Source of the DNA: Armatimonadota bacterium
GTDB taxonomy: Bacteria > Armatimonadota > Zipacnadia > UBA1398 > JAKPQA01
Length of the DNA stretch: 64,000 nucleotides
Direction of reading: 5' to 3'
Assembly (NCBI GenBank): GCA_029547025.1
Contig: JAKPQA010000005.1
Span: 3,880 to 67,879, forward strand
Positions 386-64,000 of this stretch are shown here, piece after piece; position 1 is the first letter of the stretch; each line of letters opens with the position of its first letter. The notes beneath the pieces are model-generated. The model ran no database searches and had not been told where the DNA came from. It saw nothing but the letters and a program-made list of their open reading frames with translations. Position numbers and translations under genes: made by a program.

Positions 386-492
386 AGTCCTCGTGGGGAT
401 CTCCTCAAGGGCTGGCCCTCCGCTGGGCGGAAGCCATGGGGTGGGCCGGGACGCCGTGGTGGTGCTGACGCTCCCGGAGATGGGTCGCTGCG

Positions 493-1872
493 TTGAACGG
501 CGGGCATCGCGGAGGAGTTGAGCTGCGCTTCGTGGACGGGATCCGGTGCGGTCGAGCGTGGGAGTCGTCAGTCGCCGGACTGCTGGTGGCTCTGCTGTGC
601 GTGGCGGCGGGCGGATGCCGGCGGTCCACCCAGACGGATGATGCCTCGGTAGTGACCATTAGCGTATGGCACCCCTGGGGCGGGACGATGGGTGATCCGT
701 GGGAGCGGATCGTGAAGGCCTTCGAGGCGGCTCACCCGGGCATCAGGGTTAAGCCCGTGTTCACCCAGAATGACCTCTCGGCCAACCAGAAGTTCTACAC
801 GGCCGTGGCGGCGTCGAGGCCGCCCGAGGTGGTGTTCGTCGACGGGCCACAGGTGGCGCCATGGGCTGAGTGGGGCGCTCTGGAACCGCTCACGGATCGC
901 ATCAACCAGGCGGGCATCGCCGCCGACGACTACTACGGGCCCTGCTGGCGGCAGAACCACTATGGCACAGATGTGTGGGCGCTAACCTTCTGCGCCGACC
1001 CCAACTTCGCGTTTGTCTGGAACCGCGCGCTGTTTCGTGAGGTGGGGCTGGATCCGGATCGGCCGCCGCGCACGATGGACGAGCTGGACGAGTACGCGGC
1101 GAAACTCACGAAGACCGACGACCAGGGGCGCTTGACACGGATCGGGTTCATCCCATGGGGTGTGTACGGCTCGGCGAACTCGATGTTCACGTGGGGCTGG
1201 GCGTTCGGGGGCCAGTTCTACGATGATGTGAACCGCAGGATCACGTGCACCGACCCGAAGATCGTCCGCGCCCTGGAGTGGATGACCTCCTATGCCGATC
1301 GGTACGACGTGACCAAGATCGCCAGCCTGCAGGCGGGGTTCGGGACCGCGGAGCAGAACCCGTTCTACACGGGACGCCTCGCCATGACGTGTCTGCTGAT
1401 CGCGGGAATCGCGGACATCGAGCGGTTCGCGCCCGAACTGGACTACGGGGTGGCGCCGCAGCCCATGCCCGATGGCGGCGAGAAAGACAGCTCATGGGTC
1501 GGCGGCTGGTGTATCGCGCTCCCCAGGGGGGCGCGCCATCAGGACGAGGGCTTCGAGTTCATCCGTTGGCTCTGCCACGACCCGGGCGGCACACAGACCG
1601 TGGGCCGGGAGACGGGCCTCTTCCCCGGCATGAGGCACTCCCCGTACTTCGATGAGGTCCGCAACCGGAAGTACTACAGCACGTTTCTTCGGATCCTCGA
1701 GGCGTGCAAGCACCAGCGGCCAGTCATGCCCGTGCAGGCGTTCTACATGCGGCAGATGCAGCGGGCAGTCGACAGCGCCATCTACAAGCAGAAGACGGCC
1801 AAGCAGGCGCTCGAGGACGCGGAGAAGGCCACGCAAGCCGAACTCGACCTGGTACTGCGCGGGGGCGAGTAG
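493..1872 (+). CDS. ABC transporter substrate-binding lipoprotein (family-1 SBP, probably sugar)
   Basis: 459-aa ORF with a signal/lipobox-like LLVALLCVAAGGC segment and family-1 SBP-like sequence. The start may instead be an internal GTG near 532. Confidence 0.65.
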   Translation: MNGGHRGGVELRFVDGIRCGRAWESSVAGLLVALLCVAAGGCRRSTQTDDASVVTISVWHPWGGTMGDPWERIVKAFEAAHPGIRVKPVFTQNDLSANQKFYTAVAASRPPEVVFVDGPQVAPWAEWGALEPLTDRINQAGIAADDYYGPCWRQNHYGTDVWALTFCADPNFAFVWNRALFREVGLDPDRPPRTMDELDEYAAKLTKTDDQGRLTRIGFIPWGVYGSANSMFTWGWAFGGQFYDDVNRRITCTDPKIVRALEWMTSYADRYDVTKIASLQAGFGTAEQNPFYTGRLAMTCLLIAGIADIERFAPELDYGVAPQPMPDGGEKDSSWVGGWCIALPRGARHQDEGFEFIRWLCHDPGGTQTVGRETGLFPGMRHSPYFDEVRNRKYYSTFLRILEACKHQRPVMPVQAFYMRQMQRAVDSAIYKQKTAKQALEDAEKATQAELDLVLRGGE

Positions 1873-58208: not shown

Positions 58209-60023
58209 GTGTTGAACAGCGTGGAGGCGGGGGCAGAGGGCCGTGCTCGTTCCGGGCGGCCGGCCCCGGGGATGACCATGGCACGAGGCAGGCGGCGCGA
58301 GTGGGGCGAGGCGGATGATGACACGCCTGAGCTCGTGATGGGCGAGGACGGGCCGGGCGATGAGTCTCTTGGCCTCGAGACCCAGGTTCAAGCCGCGGCG
58401 ATTGTCGATGAGCTGCTGAGGGCGACGGACGAGAAGGACCCGCGCTGGGGGGCATTGTTCCTCCTTCGGCACCAACTGCGTGTCGATGAGCGGCAGATGG
58501 ATGAGGCTCGGCAGGCCATTGCCGAGCTCCAACAGGCGTATGACAAGCTGACCAGTCCCGCCAATCGCCTGGGTACGTTTTTGGATGCACCCGAGGAAGG
58601 CATTGCGCGTGTGGCGGTTGGCGACACCGAGTATTACGCCAACGTGGATTCTCAGAAGGTGCCGGAGACGCCGGTTCCGGGCGCGTGTGTTCGCCTCAAC
58701 GATGCGTTTGCGGTGGTCGGCGACCTGGGTCCATGGACCAGTGGGCCGCTGACGAAGGTGGCCGAAGTCCTTGCCGACGGGCGGCTGCGGATTGGGACGG
58801 AGCCGGGCGGGCTGGGCAGCCGGATCGTGGTTCGGTCGTCGGCTCTGGACGGCATTGCTTTGCGGCAGGGCGATGAGGTTCGGCTCGACCCCAGCGGGCG
58901 GGTGGCCGTCGAGCATTTCCACCGGGCAGAGACGCGGGACTACTTTTTCGAAGAGGTGCCGGAGACGCCGTGGTCGGCCGTCGGGGGCCAGGAGGATGCC
59001 ATCCGGCTGATCCGGGACACCATCGAGCTGCCTCTCCTGCACCCGGAGCTGTATGAGCGGTTCCACAAGCGTCCGGTCAAGGGCATCCTGCTGTATGGGC
59101 CTCCCGGTTGTGGGAAGACGCTGATCGGACGGGCCACGGCGTACAACCTCACCCGGGAGTACCGGCAGCGTTTCGGGCGCGACGTCAAAGAGTGCTTCAT
59201 GTACATCAGTGGGCCCCGGATCCTCAACATGTGGCTTGGGGAGAGCGAGCGGATGGTCCGCGAGATCTTCGCTGCGGCGCGGGAGCGTGCGGCGGAGGGC
59301 CACCTGGTATTCGTCTTTGTCGACGAAGCCGAGTCGTTGCTCCGCACCCGGAGTGCGGGGCGCACTCTCAACATCGCGAACACCCTGGTGCCCCAGTTCT
59401 CAGCGGAGATGGACGGGATGGTGTCGCTGCAGAACGTTGTGGTGATCCTGACGTCCAATCGGCCCGACTACATCGATCCGGCGATTCTGAGGCCCGAGCG
59501 CATTGACCGGAAGATCAAGATCGGCCGGCCGGACCGGTCCGCGGCGCGTGAGATCTTTCGCATCTACCTCGATGATCGGGTGCCCCTGAGTGCCGAGCTC
59601 GTGGCCGAGCATGGCAGTGATCCGGCGGCGCGCGAGCATCTCCGCGACCAATGCGTGCACCGGATCTTCCGGTCGGTTCGCGAGACGGAGTTCCTCGAGG
59701 TTCACCTGCTGAACGGTCGTACGGACGTGTTGCACTGGCGCGATCTGGTGAGCGGGGCGCTCATCATGTCGGTTGTCGAGCGCGCGAAGGATCTGGCGAT
59801 TCGCCGCGCCATCGAGAAGGGCAACCCCGCCGAGGGGATGCAGTGGGCGGACCTGGAACAGGCCATCGACCTGGAGTTCCGCGAGAACGAGATCTTCCCG
59901 AAGTCTGATGTGGTGGAGGACTGGCTGAAGCTGATCGACTACGAGCCCGAGAACGTGGTCACGGTGAAGCCGATCCGGCCGGATCGGGGCCGCGGTCGGG
60001 CCGCCCGGCATACGGTGATCTAG
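58209..60023 (+). CDS. mpa: proteasome-associated AAA ATPase Mpa/ARC homologue
   Basis: Acidic coiled-coil N-region, an inter-domain OB region, and an AAA module with LLYGPPGCGKTLI Walker A and VFVDE Walker B. Long blocks align with mycobacterial Mpa (FLEV..NG, SGA.I..VVERAK). The C-terminus is ...RAARHTVI, not GQYL. The start is uncertain (GTG at 58209 or ATG at ~58272). Confidence 0.8.
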   Translation: MLNSVEAGAEGRARSGRPAPGMTMARGRRREWGEADDDTPELVMGEDGPGDESLGLETQVQAAAIVDELLRATDEKDPRWGALFLLRHQLRVDERQMDEARQAIAELQQAYDKLTSPANRLGTFLDAPEEGIARVAVGDTEYYANVDSQKVPETPVPGACVRLNDAFAVVGDLGPWTSGPLTKVAEVLADGRLRIGTEPGGLGSRIVVRSSALDGIALRQGDEVRLDPSGRVAVEHFHRAETRDYFFEEVPETPWSAVGGQEDAIRLIRDTIELPLLHPELYERFHKRPVKGILLYGPPGCGKTLIGRATAYNLTREYRQRFGRDVKECFMYISGPRILNMWLGESERMVREIFAAARERAAEGHLVFVFVDEAESLLRTRSAGRTLNIANTLVPQFSAEMDGMVSLQNVVVILTSNRPDYIDPAILRPERIDRKIKIGRPDRSAAREIFRIYLDDRVPLSAELVAEHGSDPAAREHLRDQCVHRIFRSVRETEFLEVHLLNGRTDVLHWRDLVSGALIMSVVERAKDLAIRRAIEKGNPAEGMQWADLEQAIDLEFRENEIFPKSDVVEDWLKLIDYEPENVVTVKPIRPDRGRGRAARHTVI

Positions 60024-60053
60024 CCCGGCGAGTTGGGAAGGGAGCATTCCCTG

Positions 60054-61640
60054 GTGCCTCGAGTGCATGTCAGGCCCCTGATCCCCCTGGGTCACTCACT
60101 GTCGGTGCGGCTCATGGGTACGGAGACCGAGTATGGCATCTACGTTGACGGCGTTGAGCCGGGGGGCCTCGACCAGGAGTCTGCCCGGCTGGTCGAGGCG
60201 GTTCCTCCTCCCTTCGCGGCACGGTGGGACTACTCGGCCGAGACACCCCGGCGGGATCTGCGCGGTTTCACGGTGAACGCGCTGGCGCGCGACGCTCGGG
60301 ATGCCGCCTATGATGCGGCGGTTGGGGAGGCGTCGCGTGCCGCCCCGGCCGACCGCGTTCTGGCCAACGGGTCCCGGCTCTACAACGACCACGCCCATCC
60401 CGAGTACTCGACACCGGAGTGTGCATCGCTTTGGGACCTGGTGGCGCACGAGAAGGCGGGCGAGCAGATCGTGGCCGCTTGCGCCTCCCGGCGGGCCGCG
60501 GACCTGGGCCGCAGGGTGGCGCTGTATAAGAACAATACCGACTTCCATGGCATGAGCTATGGGGCCCACGAGAACTATCTGTTGCCGCGGTCGGTGCCTG
60601 ACGAGGTGTTGCTCGGCGGGCTGTTGCCGTTCCTGGTTTCGCGGCAGGCGTTCGCGGGTGCCGGCAAGGTGGGGGTGGAACGGCACCGAGCTCCGAAGGT
60701 CCGGTATCAGCTCTCGCAGCGGGCCGACTTTTTCGACACCGATGTGGGGGTCGATACGCTGGCCCGGCGCCCCATCGTCAACACGCGCGATGAGCCACAC
60801 ACCGATGCCAGCCAGTACCGCCGGCTGCACGTGATCTGTGGCGATGCGAACTTGAGCGAGTACGCCATGGCGCTCAAGGTGGGGGTCACGGCCCTGGTTC
60901 TGGAGACGCTGGCCGCGGGGCGAGCACCGGCGATTCGGCTGGCCAAGCCGGTCGAGGCGGTGCGGCGGATCTCCTGGGACCCGGCGTTTGAGTACCGAGC
61001 CGAGACGGTTGACGGGGGCCGCCTGACGGCCCTCGAGATCCAGCGGGTCTACCTGGACGCTGCGTCGGCGCTGGAGTTGCCGAGTGGTTCGGAGGGAGAG
61101 TGGGTGCTCCGGCAGTGGGCGGCGATGCTGGACGCACTGGCGACCGATCCGTCGTCTCTGGCCGACCGGATCGACTGGGTGGCGAAGTACTCGATGTTGG
61201 AGTCCTATGCGGCTGGTGAGGCCTCGGGTTGGGAGCCTGAAGTCATGCAGAGCCTGGATCTGGCGTACCATGACCTGGACGCCGAGGCGGGCTTGTTCCG
61301 GGGCCTGGAGCAACAGGATGCCGTCCAGCGCCTGGTGACACTGGGCCAAGTGGCCCGGGCCGTGAGCGCTCCGCCCGGCGACACGAGGGCCGCACTTCGG
61401 GGCCTGTGTGTTCAGCGCTTTGCCTCGCAGATTGAGGCGATCCGTTGGGGCCGCGTGGTGCTGTCGCTGAACGGCAGCTTGTGGGCGTTCGACATGGAGG
61501 ACCTGGTGGAAGGGGTGCCACCGGGACTTCTGGAGGCGTTGTCGGGTGTTGGGACACTGGAGGAGCTTGCAGCCCTGGTGGCTCGACGGGATGGTGGACG
61601 CGATGGCGGAGATGAAGCGCTGGCCGGTGGCGGGGTGTGA
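60054..61640 (+). CDS. dop: Pup deamidase/depupylase Dop (Dop/PafA family)
   Basis: N-terminal GTETEYGI motif and DHAHPEYSTPEC motif. Its length of over 500 aa is longer than a PafA. Start options are the GTG at 60054 (GAAGGGAG Shine-Dalgarno), the TTG at 60033, or the ATG at 60114. Confidence 0.75.
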   Translation: MPRVHVRPLIPLGHSLSVRLMGTETEYGIYVDGVEPGGLDQESARLVEAVPPPFAARWDYSAETPRRDLRGFTVNALARDARDAAYDAAVGEASRAAPADRVLANGSRLYNDHAHPEYSTPECASLWDLVAHEKAGEQIVAACASRRAADLGRRVALYKNNTDFHGMSYGAHENYLLPRSVPDEVLLGGLLPFLVSRQAFAGAGKVGVERHRAPKVRYQLSQRADFFDTDVGVDTLARRPIVNTRDEPHTDASQYRRLHVICGDANLSEYAMALKVGVTALVLETLAAGRAPAIRLAKPVEAVRRISWDPAFEYRAETVDGGRLTALEIQRVYLDAASALELPSGSEGEWVLRQWAAMLDALATDPSSLADRIDWVAKYSMLESYAAGEASGWEPEVMQSLDLAYHDLDAEAGLFRGLEQQDAVQRLVTLGQVARAVSAPPGDTRAALRGLCVQRFASQIEAIRWGRVVLSLNGSLWAFDMEDLVEGVPPGLLEALSGVGTLEELAALVARRDGGRDGGDEALAGGGV

Positions 61641-61806
61641 GCGGCAGCAGAGACCGCCCGGACCGCGGGAGCCGTGGCAGCGTGGTGAGGACGACGGCCC
61701 GTCTCGGCCCGATGTTCAGCGGCCGGATACGCAGGAGTTGCTGCGGCGAATGCGCCGGGTGGACCCGCGCCAGGCGCGACGGTATCGGCAGCGGAGCGGG
61801 CAGTAG
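61591..61806 (+). CDS. candidate divergent pup (highly uncertain): basic ORF ending ...RRYRQRSGQ, overlapping the dop 3' end
   Basis: This is the only ORF in the dop-prcB gap frame that ends in Gly-Gln immediately (7 nt) before prcB. No start codon exists after the dop stop, so it would have to begin inside dop. Its composition is basic, unlike acidic canonical Pup. Confidence 0.15.
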   Translation: MVDAMAEMKRWPVAGCERQQRPPGPREPWQRGEDDGPSRPDVQRPDTQELLRRMRRVDPRQARRYRQRSGQ

Positions 61807-61810
61807 CCGC

Positions 61811-62623
61811 ATGGGGGAGGGGCGAAGGGTGGATGCGGGGATGCCGGCGGCTTCGGGTGACTTCATGCTGCTGTTGCAGCGCGGTGCTCCGCCGGGCGCG
61901 AGCATGCCGTGGTGCGGTGCCGACCCCCGTGTGGGGCGTCTCGAACCCGCGGGGGCGGCGCATGGTACCACGGTGCTGGCGCTCAAGTATCGAGATGGCG
62001 TGGTGAACGTGGGTGACCGCCGGGCGACGGCGGAGAACCTGGTGCTGTACGACCGGGCGGACAAGATCCTGCCGCTGGACGACCATACGCTGATCGCCAT
62101 CAGCGGGTCGTACGCGCGCGCCATGGATGCGGTTCGCTTCCTCCGGCACTCCTTCAACTACTACCGCCGGAGCCAGCTTCAGGAGATGAGTCTCGAGGGG
62201 AAGCTCAACGAAGTGACGCGATTCCTGGTCGGCACGGTACCCGACCTCCTCCAGGGTCAAGGTTATGTGGTGCCGCTGATCAGCGCTTTTGATGTGAGTG
62301 CGGACGCGGGACGGGTTTTCTTCTTCGATGTGGCCGGTGCGCGGTTCGAGACGGCGGAGTTTGGCGCCGCGGGGTCGGGGTCGCACCGCATTCGCGGCGC
62401 CTTCGATTACATCGTGAAGACCAAGGGCCCGTTTCACGAGATGGCGCTGCACGAGGTATTGCGTGAGGCGCTGGTGTTGTTGGACATCGCTGCCGAGCTT
62501 GATGCGGCCACCGGTGGTCTGCAGAAGGTGTTGCCGAGCGTGAAGACGGTGACCCGCGAGGGCATCCGGGAGATGGAGGAGGCCGAGCTGGCCGAGGTCG
62601 TTGGGCAGCTTGGGGCGAGCTGA
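61811..62623 (+). CDS. prcB: 20S proteasome beta subunit with propeptide
   Basis: HGTTVLALKYRDGVVNVGDRRAT places the Thr-1 active site after a ~57-aa propeptide. Start at the ATG at 61811, or possibly the upstream ATG at 61712 in the same frame. Confidence 0.8.
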   Translation: MGEGRRVDAGMPAASGDFMLLLQRGAPPGASMPWCGADPRVGRLEPAGAAHGTTVLALKYRDGVVNVGDRRATAENLVLYDRADKILPLDDHTLIAISGSYARAMDAVRFLRHSFNYYRRSQLQEMSLEGKLNEVTRFLVGTVPDLLQGQGYVVPLISAFDVSADAGRVFFFDVAGARFETAEFGAAGSGSHRIRGAFDYIVKTKGPFHEMALHEVLREALVLLDIAAELDAATGGLQKVLPSVKTVTREGIREMEEAELAEVVGQLGAS

Positions 62624-63408
62624 TGGCCTTCACACCGTATGACTGGAACCAGAGCATCCAGCACCGCGAGGACTATGTGGCCGACCGGCTGCGCGAGGGG
62701 AGCCCGGTGGTGGGTCTGCGCTACGCTGGAGGCGTGGCGCTTGTCACCCTCCGGCGAAGCCAGCGGAAGGTGTTCGAGATCTACGATCGGCTCATGTTCG
62801 CCGGCCTCGGCAGCCAGTCGGATATCGAGGCGGTGCGGGTTGCCGCCATCGATTTCGCTCACCAGGAGGGGTTTCGGCGAAGCCCCGATGACGTGACCAT
62901 CCAGCGGGTGGTTGGCTTCGCGTTGAGCCCGGCGCTCAAGCGTCAGTTTGCGGATCCCTTCCATGTTCCGGCGATCATCCGTGGCCTGTTCGCCGAGGTG
63001 GGTCAGACGCCGGAGGACGACCGTCTGTACCTGCTGGACCACGACGGCGAGTTCGAGGTCTACCGGCACTACGCGTGCGCCGCGGCCACCGTCGAGCAGC
63101 AGGAACGCATGGCGGCGTATGCTGGGCGGAGCTTCGATGCTTCGGCGGGCTGGGAGTCGGCGGTGGCGCTGGGGCTGCGGACCTGGGCGGTGGGCAGGCT
63201 TCCCGCGGTCGAGTCCGAGGACGACGGTTGCGCCGGCGGTGCCACTGGAGCGGCGGTGCCGGTGTTGCCCGACGAGGCACGGATCACTCAGGCGCTGGCC
63301 GAGGGGCTGCGGGACCTGCAGCCGGAGGTGGGCCTACTCGAGCGCGACGCGCCCCGGGAGAGCAAGTTCCGCCTGGTTCCCGCGGAGGAGATTCCACGTC
63401 CGGGATAG
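62623..63408 (+). CDS. prcA: 20S proteasome alpha subunit
   Basis: Proteasome alpha-type fold pattern. Its ATG overlaps the prcB stop by 1 nt. Confidence 0.75.
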   Translation: MAFTPYDWNQSIQHREDYVADRLREGSPVVGLRYAGGVALVTLRRSQRKVFEIYDRLMFAGLGSQSDIEAVRVAAIDFAHQEGFRRSPDDVTIQRVVGFALSPALKRQFADPFHVPAIIRGLFAEVGQTPEDDRLYLLDHDGEFEVYRHYACAAATVEQQERMAAYAGRSFDASAGWESAVALGLRTWAVGRLPAVESEDDGCAGGATGAAVPVLPDEARITQALAEGLRDLQPEVGLLERDAPRESKFRLVPAEEIPRPG

Positions 63409-63417
63409 GGGTGGGCC

Positions 63418-64000
63418 ATGCGCGAGCGGCTGATGGGGCTCGAGGTCGAGTATGGGTGCTTGGTCCGGGATGCGTCGCTCGGTCGTCCGGAGCAGGTCGT
63501 GGAGCTACTGAAGGACTACGCGTTCAACGATCTGCAGATCGGCCTGGTCGACCGGCACGCGCGGGACTTCGCCTTCGAGCCCGCCCAGGCCGGGGGGTTC
63601 CTCACCAATGGAGGCCGTCTCTACATCGACGCCGTGGGCGACCATCTGGAGTACGCCACACCCGAGGTCACACGGCTCGATGACCTGGTGGCGCACGACC
63701 GGGCGGGTCAGCGGACCCTGCTCCGCCTGGTTGACGGCGCGCTCTCGCGGGACGCGGTGAGCTTTCACAACAACAGCATTGACCATTTTGGTGGTCACAC
63801 CTTCGGGTGCCATGAGAACTACGCGGTGAGCATCCCGTCGGACAGCTTGCGCGTGGCGCTCACCAGCGTGGTCTCATTCCTGGTCAGCCGCCTGATCTAC
63901 GCCGGAGCCGGGCGGGTGGGAGGTCATCGTTTGACCCGCGGCTCGCCGCGCGATCTCGCTCGCCAGGGCCACAGGGTCCTGGACACCCTCTGGGTGGGAG
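63418..64000 (+). CDS. pafA: Pup--protein ligase PafA, N-terminal part; 3' end lies outside the window
   Basis: An MGLEVEYG start motif and NGGRLYIDAVGDHLEYATPE, paralogous to dop. The frame is open to the window end. Confidence 0.7.
   Translation, partial: MRERLMGLEVEYGCLVRDASLGRPEQVVELLKDYAFNDLQIGLVDRHARDFAFEPAQAGGFLTNGGRLYIDAVGDHLEYATPEVTRLDDLVAHDRAGQRTLLRLVDGALSRDAVSFHNNSIDHFGGHTFGCHENYAVSIPSDSLRVALTSVVSFLVSRLIYAGAGRVGGHRLTRGSPRDLARQGHRVLDTLWVG

What the first reader, a model, noticed from the sequence alone, without database searches (positions are those of the whole stretch)
61546..61810. Expected pup gene between dop and prcB is not recognisable; only a basic overlapping ORF ending -SGQ
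In characterised pupylation loci a ~60-70-aa acidic Pup ending GGQ or GGE sits between dop and prcB. Here the 170-nt gap has no start codon after the dop stop in any frame that ends near prcB. The only candidate is a 71-aa ORF starting inside dop (ATG 61591) and ending RRYRQRSGQ 7 nt before prcB. Its tail loosely parallels the Pup C-terminal helix end (R-x-Y-x-Q-x-x-G-Q), but it is strongly basic. Either pup lies elsewhere, or this lineage uses a very divergent Pup, or the ORF is a GC-frame artefact.
Basis: partly seen in the sequence, partly recalled or inferred. Interest (0 to 1): 0.5.

Follow-up and report, generated by a model that had tools for sequence, protein, structure and literature searches.

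The report
UBact gene, the Gram-negative Pup counterpart
The small basic ORF between dop and prcB is a real, well-conserved gene for UBact, the already described and database-annotated counterpart of the Pup degradation tag in non-actinobacterial bacteria, so the finding is genuine but ordinary.

Summary
An ORF in frame 1 (GTG 61546 / ATG 61591, stop TAG 61804-61806) ends RRYRQRSGQ, starts inside dop, lies just upstream of prcB, and is strongly basic. It is neither unrecognisable nor an artefact. It matches the curated UBact models far above their cut-offs (NCBIfam NF033388 73.7 bits against 35; Pfam PF20513 75 bits against 27.8). The same DNA (99.98% identical) in Armatimonadota MAG GCA_035418165.1 is already annotated "ubiquitin-like protein UBact" (67 aa, ATG = window 61603). 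More than 570 related loci exist in species-representative genomes of Armatimonadota, Latescibacterota, Verrucomicrobiota, Gemmatimonadota and others. In the 83 sequences examined, the conserved 54-residue cores are all basic (pI 9.8-11.7) and end R-[S/T]-G-[Q/E]. Their variation is concentrated at third codon positions. The gene order is Mpa > Dop > UBact > PrcB > PrcA > PafA. The basic charge is therefore a family trait. The overlap with dop (29-38 nt here) exceeds 4 nt in 7 of 57 scorable sequences (6 distinct loci). The inferred mechanism is Pup-like: Dop deamidates the terminal Gln, PafA ligates it to lysines, and Mpa with the 20S proteasome degrades the target. No conjugation experiment was found in the searchable literature. 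Verdict: already known, low interest.

The parts
58209..60023 (+). Mpa/ARC-like proteasomal AAA ATPase. The true start is probably downstream of GTG 58209.
   Evidence: TIGR03689 scores 443 bits, below its equivalog cut-off of 504.75. Pfam finds Prot_ATP_ID_OB_N, Prot_ATP_ID_OB_C and AAA. The best solved relatives are M. tuberculosis Mpa chains at 326 bits. The Walker A motif GPPGCGKT is visible in the translation.
60033..61640 (+). Dop-like deamidase/depupylase homologue. The conserved core begins at VRLMGTETEYG, so the likely start is GTG 60108 or ATG 60114. The stop is TGA 61638-61640.
   Evidence: TIGR03688 (Dop) scores 444.7 bits against 338.7 for TIGR03686 (PafA). Pfam Pup_ligase scores 515 bits. 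Solved Dop structures score 369 bits against 234 for PafA. About 25 extra residues lie between the EYG and NGxRLY motifs compared with the downstream paralogue (direct reading).
61603..61806 (+). UBact gene. The start is ATG 61603 (67 aa, as annotated in GCA_035418165.1) or ATG 61612 (64 aa, supported by homology). It overlaps the 3' end of dop by 38 or 29 nt. The conserved core is 61642-61803 and the C-terminus is RSGQ.
   Evidence: NF033388 scores 73.7 bits (cut-off 35) and covers profile positions 3-54 of 54. PF20513 scores 75 bits (gathering score 27.8). There are 117 homologues, all with PF20513, and P0001 is 100% identical and named UBact. The alignment has 16 invariant columns. The start of the nearest relative, L001, aligns within one codon of ATG 61612.
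61811..62623 (+). PrcB, the 20S proteasome beta subunit with its propeptide. The start is ambiguous: ATG 61811, GTG 61829 (database annotation) or ATG 61841.
   Evidence: TIGR03690 scores 137 bits (cut-off 191.9) and Pfam Proteasome scores 86 bits. The translation shows HG|TTVLAL, with Thr1, Asp17 and Lys33 spaced as in active beta subunits (direct reading). One search gives the annotated start.
62623..63408 (+). PrcA, a divergent 20S proteasome alpha subunit. Its ATG overlaps the prcB stop (TGATG).
   Evidence: TIGR03691 scores 65 bits (cut-off 139) and Pfam Proteasome scores 24.8 bits (gathering score 22.4). The position after PrcB is conserved in related loci.
63418..64000 (+). Second Pup-ligase-family gene, PafA-like, cut off by the end of the window.
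   Evidence: Pfam Pup_ligase scores 128.9 bits over the first 170 residues. TIGR03686 (PafA) scores 80.1 bits against 73.9 for Dop. A second Pup_ligase paralogue follows PrcA in L001 and in most full-length related loci.

Best explanation
The ORF is the gene for UBact, a short, intrinsically disordered, arginine-rich protein modifier. UBact takes the place of Pup in the pupylation/proteasome gene cluster of non-actinobacterial bacteria, here an Armatimonadota MAG.

**Translation (shown).** It starts at an ATG inside the 3' end of dop (61612 or 61603) and ends at TAG 61804-61806, just before prcB. It sits within an operon-like run of Mpa, Dop, UBact, PrcB, PrcA and PafA.

**Mechanism (inferred by analogy with Pup).**
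1. The Dop homologue deamidates the C-terminal Gln of ...R-S-G-Q to Glu.
2. The PafA homologue uses ATP to link the gamma-carboxylate of that Glu to lysine side chains of target proteins.
3. The two short C-terminal helices of UBact are bound by the Mpa-like ATPase, which unfolds the tagged protein into the PrcAB 20S proteasome.
4. Dop can also remove the tag.

The basic charge is a feature of the whole family, not an anomaly of this locus.
For: **Family membership**
- NF033388 scores 73.7 bits against a cut-off of 35, and PF20513 scores 75-76 bits against 27.8.
- The identical protein P0001 is named UBact by NCBI. The window is 99.98% identical to that contig over 4540 nt.
- All 117 homologues carry PF20513, and 16 columns are invariant in a 32-sequence alignment.
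- At least 571 related loci occur in species-representative genomes of several phyla.

**Selection on the protein**
- Codon-position entropy is 0.59/0.48/1.40 bits over the last 45 codons of 73 sequences.

**Basic charge is universal**
- Core pI is 9.8-11.7 and net charge is +3 to +7 in 83 sequences.
- In the 73 sequences matching the strict pattern, the C-termini are RSGQ 27, RSGE 24, RTGE 13 and RTGQ 9.

**Context**
- The order Mpa > Dop > UBact > PrcB > PrcA > second Pup-ligase paralogue holds in related loci.
- Dop is present, as a Q-terminal tag requires.
- The PrcB catalytic Thr is present.

**Shape**
- AlphaFold2 predicts no secondary structure except two C-terminal helices (residues 47-54 and 59-69 of the 71-aa form), at moderate confidence throughout (mean pLDDT 66). 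This matches the bihelical unit plus G[EQ] tail described for Pup-like proteins (PMC2588565).

**Literature**
- UBact was named by Lehmann et al. 2017 (BBRC 483:946; the citation was seen).
- Pup-like conjugation outside actinobacteria was noted in 2008 and again in 2020, including Armatimonadetes (PMC7947786).
Against: - Conjugation, deamidation and proteasomal targeting by UBact are inferred only. In the searchable library UBact appears only as a citation or a passing mention in the papers checked, and no experimental paper was found.
- Sequence similarity to Pup is not significant. There is no Pfam Pup hit at E <= 10. hhalign against M. tuberculosis Pup gives probability 2.6%. A profile search of the PDB finds no Pup chain.
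- The Dop, PafA, Mpa, PrcB and PrcA homologues all score below the NCBIfam equivalog cut-offs, so they are diverged from the characterised actinobacterial enzymes.
- The start codon is not settled: it could be 61603 or 61612.
Confidence: 0.9

Rival explanations
1. The ORF is a non-coding artefact of high G+C content, and the dop-prcB spacer encodes nothing.
For: The window is 68% G+C. Long spurious ORFs are common on both strands, for example 61243-62157(-) and 61412-62452(-). There is no start codon after the dop stop, and no textbook Shine-Dalgarno spacing before any candidate ATG.
Against: HMM E-values are 1e-20 and 4e-21, more than twice the curated cut-offs. The amino-acid sequence is conserved across phyla, with variation concentrated at third codon positions. 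The position is conserved in more than 80 loci.
Confidence: 0.01
2. A canonical acidic Pup (GGQ/GGE) is encoded elsewhere in the genome and is the real substrate of Dop and PafA. This ORF would then have some other role.
For: Only 64 kb of the genome is visible, so the rest could not be searched.
Against: No other short frame in the window ending G[QE] matches Pup or any Pfam family. The only GGE-ending frame is a 467-codon open frame (469-1872). UBact occupies exactly the Pup slot in every related locus examined. From my own recollection of Lehmann et al. 2017, which I could not read, UBact-bearing lineages are described as having UBact instead of Pup.
Confidence: 0.03
3. UBact is translated and works with the cluster, but it is not a lysine-conjugated degradation tag. 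It could instead be a non-covalent adaptor or regulator of the Mpa-like ATPase or proteasome, or a polyanion-binding peptide.
For: No experimental conjugation data were found. The charge is the inverse of Pup (+7 against -12). Sequence homology to Pup is not significant. The associated enzymes score below the equivalog cut-offs.
Against: Gly is invariant at the penultimate position in the 32-sequence alignment. All 73 sequences tallied end G-[Q/E], which is the chemical requirement for Dop/PafA chemistry. Both Q and E termini occur, as in Pup. UBact always occurs with a Dop-like and a PafA-like gene. The disordered shape with two C-terminal helices resembles Pup.
Confidence: 0.06

Closest known systems
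UBact (ubiquitin bacterial; NCBIfam NF033388, Pfam PF20513; Lehmann, Udasin, Livneh & Ciechanover 2017, BBRC 483:946)
   Same: - It matches both curated models at more than twice their cut-offs.
- Its length is 64-67 aa.
- It has the conserved core GPxRPDVxRPDTxxLLxRMRRVDPxQARRYRQR[ST]G[QE].
- It is basic.
- It sits between Dop and PrcB in an Mpa-Dop-UBact-PrcB-PrcA-PafA cluster.
- The host is a non-actinobacterial phylum (Armatimonadota).
   Different: - It lies at the basic extreme of the family, with core pI 11.7, net charge +7 and no lysine. The family median is pI 10.5 with 4 lysines.
- Its start lies 29-38 nt inside dop, whereas most relatives start at or after the dop stop. Six distinct loci, this one included, show an overlap of more than 4 nt.
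- These are minor variations.
Pup (prokaryotic ubiquitin-like protein; Pfam PF05639; Pearce et al. 2008)
   Same: - It occupies the same slot between dop and prcB.
- It is a similar size.
- It is predicted to be disordered with C-terminal helices.
- It has the same terminal G-[Q/E].
- The C-terminal pattern LLxx[IM]xxV...A..[FY].Q.xG[QE] runs loosely parallel.
- Its partner enzymes (Dop, PafA, Mpa, PrcAB) are homologous.
   Different: - There is no Pfam Pup hit even at E <= 10.
- hhalign probability is 2.6%.
- It is basic (+7) rather than acidic (-12 for M. tuberculosis Pup, using a sequence I recalled from memory that itself scored 79.7 bits on PF05639).
- The tail is R-S-G-Q rather than K-G-G-Q.
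- The helix region is 4 residues shorter in the hhalign alignment.
Ubiquitin / SAMP / Urm1 beta-grasp modifiers
   Same: The presumed role is the same: a small protein attached to lysines that directs targets to a proteasome.
   Different: There is no beta-grasp fold, since the prediction is disordered plus two helices. The ligation chemistry differs too: a glutamine-synthetase-like ligase acts on a terminal Glu side chain, rather than an E1/E2/E3 cascade acting on a terminal Gly carboxylate.

Membership tests
UBact (NF033388 / PF20513) | Scores above the curated cut-off of the family models | tested here: met
   NF033388 scores 73.7 bits against 35, covering profile positions 3-54 of 54. PF20513 scores 75-76 bits against 27.8, covering 2-43 of 43.
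UBact (NF033388 / PF20513) | Short protein (about 45-75 aa) ending R-[S/T]-G-[Q/E] | tested here: met
   It is 64-67 aa and ends RSGQ. In 73 sequences the termini are RSGQ 27, RSGE 24, RTGE 13 and RTGQ 9. Homologue lengths are 44-77 aa.
UBact (NF033388 / PF20513) | Encoded between a Dop-like gene and prcB within an Mpa-Dop-UBact-PrcB-PrcA-PafA cluster | tested here: met
   The same order is seen in L001/L002 and across the 83 related loci.
UBact (NF033388 / PF20513) | Occurs in non-actinobacterial (Gram-negative) phyla | tested here: met
   The identical protein and a 99.98% identical contig come from an Armatimonadota MAG. Relatives occur in Armatimonadota, Latescibacterota, Verrucomicrobiota, Gemmatimonadota and Bipolaricaulota.
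UBact (NF033388 / PF20513) | Covalent conjugation to substrate lysines through the C-terminal Glu | not testable with these tools
   This needs mass spectrometry or in vitro ligation. No experimental report was found in the paper library.
Pup (PF05639) | Matches the Pup family model | tested here: not met
   There is no PF05639 hit at E <= 10, whereas the control M. tuberculosis Pup scored 79.7 bits. hhalign probability is 2.6%.
Pup (PF05639) | Acidic protein ending G-G-[Q/E] | tested here: not met
   pI is 11.2-11.7 with net charge +7, and the tail is S-G-Q.
Pup (PF05639) | C-terminal G-[Q/E] suitable for Dop/PafA chemistry, in the neighbourhood of Dop, PafA, Mpa and PrcAB | tested here: met
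   The tail ends G-Q, and all five partner genes are adjacent. PMC2588565 gives G[EQ] as the shared signature.

The most novel reading that the evidence does not exclude
UBact may be more than a sequence-diverged Pup. It could be a charge-inverted tag, lysine-free in this locus, that is read by correspondingly altered surfaces on the ATPase, ligase and deamidase. Its ATPase carries a conserved ...R-[RH]-x-[VI]-I tail instead of the actinobacterial GQYL, which might mean a different mode of docking to the 20S proteasome. Because no conjugation experiment was found in the papers I could search, the system might also have a partly different function from pupylation.
Probability: 0.12. Interest if true: 0.45.

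Novelty: already known. Interest (0 to 1): 0.08.

Why it matters
For the scan, very little. The gene belongs to a family that was named in 2017, has curated Pfam and NCBIfam models, and is already annotated on the same DNA in GenBank. The useful results are negative or corrective:
- A missing acidic Pup next to dop/prcB outside Actinobacteria should prompt a check for UBact.
- The basic charge and the overlap with dop are normal for the family.

The broader point is that UBact conjugation appears never to have been shown experimentally in the papers I could search. Loci like this one remain candidates for testing whether a proteasome-tagging system operates in Gram-negative phyla.

Tried and rejected
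- **Pfam Pup model at E <= 10:** no hit.
- **hhalign of the UBact alignment against M. tuberculosis Pup:** only a 27-column tail alignment, probability 2.6%. This is not evidence of homology on its own.
- **UBact profile against all PDB sequences:** only a chance match (3fok, E = 1.9). No Pup chain was found.
- **Six-frame search of the window for frames ending G[QE]:** 13 frames. The 8 short ones other than UBact have no Pfam match. The only GGE end belongs to a 467-codon open frame.
- **GTG 61627 as the start (59 aa):** rejected. The residues P-V-A-x-C-E upstream of it are conserved in L001, where that stretch lies downstream of its annotated ATG and does not overlap dop.
- **Frameshift or assembly error in dop as the cause of the overlap:** rejected. 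The dop tail is simply 11 codons longer than in L001. Both read through EEL/IAA in frame. The independent GenBank contig has the same sequence.
- **The original UBact paper (doi 10.1016/j.bbrc.2017.01.037):** not held. Its content is cited from its title, from citations in other papers and from memory.
- **tRNA and Rfam scans of the window:** nothing found.

Full report
**Observation**

- A frame-1 ORF runs from GTG 61546 to the stop TAG 61804-61806. It is 86 aa from the GTG and 71 aa from ATG 61591, and it ends ...DPRQARRYRQRSGQ.
- The upstream Pup-ligase-family gene (dop) stops at TGA 61638-61640, and the first ATG of prcB is at 61811. The intergenic gap is therefore 170 nt.
- In the ORF's frame, the only start codons after the dop stop are TTG 61738, ATG 61750 and GTG 61759, plus the non-canonical CTG 61741. 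These would give peptides of 22 residues or fewer, so the gene has to begin inside dop.
- The candidate starts inside dop are ATG 61591, GTG 61594, ATG 61603, ATG 61612 and GTG 61627, plus the more distal GTG 61546, TTG 61549 and TTG 61567.
- The product is strongly basic, with pI 11.2-11.5 for every candidate start tested.

**Identity**

The ORF is not unrecognisable.
- It matches NCBIfam NF033388, 'ubiquitin-like protein UBact' (an equivalog model), at 73.7 bits against a cut-off of 35. The match covers profile positions 3-54 of 54.
- It matches Pfam PF20513 'UBact' at 75 bits against a gathering score of 27.8. The 64-aa form scores 76.2 bits.
- A search of 5.8 billion proteins returned 117 homologues, every one carrying PF20513. 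The best, P0001, is 100% identical, 67 aa long, and named by NCBI 'MAG TPA: ubiquitin-like protein UBact [Armatimonadota bacterium]'.
- P0001's contig (GCA_035418165.1, DAOLQO010000369.1, 5552 nt) is 99.98% identical to window 58603-63142. The very gene is therefore already annotated in GenBank, starting at the ATG that corresponds to window 61603.

**Real gene or G+C artefact**

- A 32-sequence alignment has 16 invariant columns. The consensus core is ER.TRP...EP....GDD.GPSRPDV.RPDT.DLL.RMRRVDP.QARRYRQRSG[EQ].
- A scan of one genome per species found at least 571 relatives. The 80 fetched come from Armatimonadota, Latescibacterota, Verrucomicrobiota, Gemmatimonadota, Bipolaricaulota and others.
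- Over the last 45 codons of 73 sequences, mean column entropy is 0.59, 0.48 and 1.40 bits at codon positions 1, 2 and 3. This is the signature of selection on the protein and not on the DNA.

**The basic charge is a family trait**

- In the 83 sequences examined (82 fetched loci plus the window; three pairs are duplicates of the same DNA), the 54-residue core has pI 9.8-11.7 (median 10.5) and net charge +3 to +7.
- The window's copy is at the top of that range (pI 11.7, +7) and has no lysine, as do 9 of the 83.
- C-termini in the 73 sequences matching the strict pattern are RSGQ (27), RSGE (24), RTGE (13) and RTGQ (9).

**Context**

The neighbours are as follows.
- An Mpa/ARC-like AAA ATPase (58209-60023).
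- A Dop-like gene (60033-61640). It scores 444.7 bits on the Dop model against 338.7 on the PafA model. Against solved structures it scores 369 bits on Dop and 234 on PafA.
- PrcB (61811-62623). The translation shows HG|TTVLAL with Asp17 and Lys33.
- A divergent PrcA (62623-63408).
- A second, PafA-like Pup-ligase gene cut off by the window end (63418 onwards).

The order Mpa > Dop > UBact > PrcB > PrcA > second paralogue recurs in the related loci. All of these enzymes score below the actinobacterial equivalog cut-offs, as expected for the diverged non-actinobacterial versions.

**Start codon and the overlap with dop**

- In the nearest relative (P0002, 75% identical; locus L001) UBact starts at an ATG that overlaps the dop stop as ATGA, preceded by GGAGG 8 nt upstream.
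- That ATG aligns within one codon of window ATG 61612. The N-termini correspond: MKRWPVAGCE in the window and MINGLPVARCE in P0002.
- In the window the dop tail is 11 codons longer, which creates an overlap of 29 nt (from 61612) or 38 nt (from 61603).
- GTG 61627 is unlikely, because P-V-A-x-C-E upstream of it is conserved in L001, where that stretch lies downstream of its annotated ATG and does not overlap dop.
- Of the 57 sequences where the junction could be scored, 7 lack any in-frame start at or after the upstream stop. The window and its GenBank duplicate count twice, so these are 6 distinct loci. The overlap is therefore a minority arrangement but not unique.

**Relation to Pup**

- The ORF does not hit Pfam Pup even at E <= 10. 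The control, M. tuberculosis Pup written from memory, scored 79.7 bits.
- hhalign aligns only the last 27 columns (PDTxxLLxRMRRVDP----QARRYRQRSGQ with EETDDLLDEIDDVLEENAEDFVRAYVQKGGQ), with probability 2.6%.
- A UBact profile finds no Pup chain in the PDB.
The link to Pup rests on the terminal G-[Q/E], the gene neighbourhood and the predicted shape.
- AlphaFold2 on the alignment predicts no secondary structure except two C-terminal helices, at residues 47-54 and 59-69 of the 71-aa form. Confidence is only moderate throughout (mean pLDDT 66).
- This resembles the 'bihelical unit' plus G[EQ] tail described for Pup-like proteins, including those outside actinobacteria (PMC2588565).

**Mechanism (inferred)**

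Because the tag ends in Gln, the Dop homologue would first deamidate it to Glu. The PafA homologue would then ligate the Glu gamma-carboxylate to lysines. The Mpa-like ATPase would bind the helical region and feed the tagged protein to PrcAB.

What is shown:
- family membership;
- selection on the protein;
- gene context;
- presence of all the partner genes.

What is inferred by analogy with actinobacterial pupylation:
- every biochemical step.

In the papers I could search, UBact appears only in citations of Lehmann et al. 2017 or as a passing mention, and that original paper is not held. PMC7947786 records Dop and PafA homologues sporadically in Armatimonadetes, Verrucomicrobia and other phyla.

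**Pup elsewhere**

Within the window, 13 stop-to-stop frames of at least 30 codons end G[QE]. Apart from UBact, the 8 short ones have no Pfam match. The single GGE end belongs to a 467-codon open frame. The rest of the genome is not available here.

**Verdict**

The feature is a typical member of a named and curated family and is already annotated on this DNA. Novelty: already known. Interest: low.

Noticed in passing
window 59988-60023 (C-terminus of the ATPase); 45 related loci: The Mpa-like ATPases of UBact clusters end in a conserved basic tail...R-[RH]-[NST]-[VI]-I. The window has ...AARHTVI and the commonest form is ...TRRNVI. The actinobacterial Mpa GQYL-type proteasome-docking tail (recalled from memory) is absent, which may mean a different docking mode to the 20S.
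   Followed up: partly
window 62623-63408: The PrcA alpha-subunit homologue is very diverged. Pfam Proteasome scores 24.8 bits against a gathering score of 22.4, and TIGR03691 scores 65 against 139. Its counterpart in L001 has no recorded Pfam hit at all.
   Followed up: no
window 61603-61640: The dop 3' tail (...ARRDGGRDGGDEALAGGGV*) is 11 codons longer than in the nearest relative, L001. This turns the ancestral-looking ATGA stop/start overlap into a 29-38 nt overlap with UBact. Six distinct loci (7 of 57 scorable sequences) have an overlap of more than 4 nt.
   Followed up: yes
window 62621-62625: The prcB stop and the prcA start overlap (TGATG). Together with the 4-nt gap between the UBact stop and the first prcB ATG, this fits a translationally coupled operon.
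   Followed up: no
window 61642-61803: This UBact core contains no lysine, as do 9 of the 83 related cores. The family median is 4 lysines. A lysine-free tag could not itself be tagged or form chains.
   Followed up: partly
window 469-1872 (+): This 467-codon open frame ends ...LVLRGGE, the only GG[QE] terminus in the window. It is far too long to be Pup, and the ending is presumably coincidental.
   Followed up: no
window 60096-61349 (-), 61243-62157 (-), 61412-62452 (-): Long antisense ORFs (304-417 aa) lie opposite dop, UBact and prcB. They are most likely shadow ORFs of 68% G+C coding DNA and not genes.
   Followed up: no
window 1-64000: No tRNA or tmRNA gene and no Rfam family at gathering threshold was found anywhere in the 64 kb.
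   Followed up: yes
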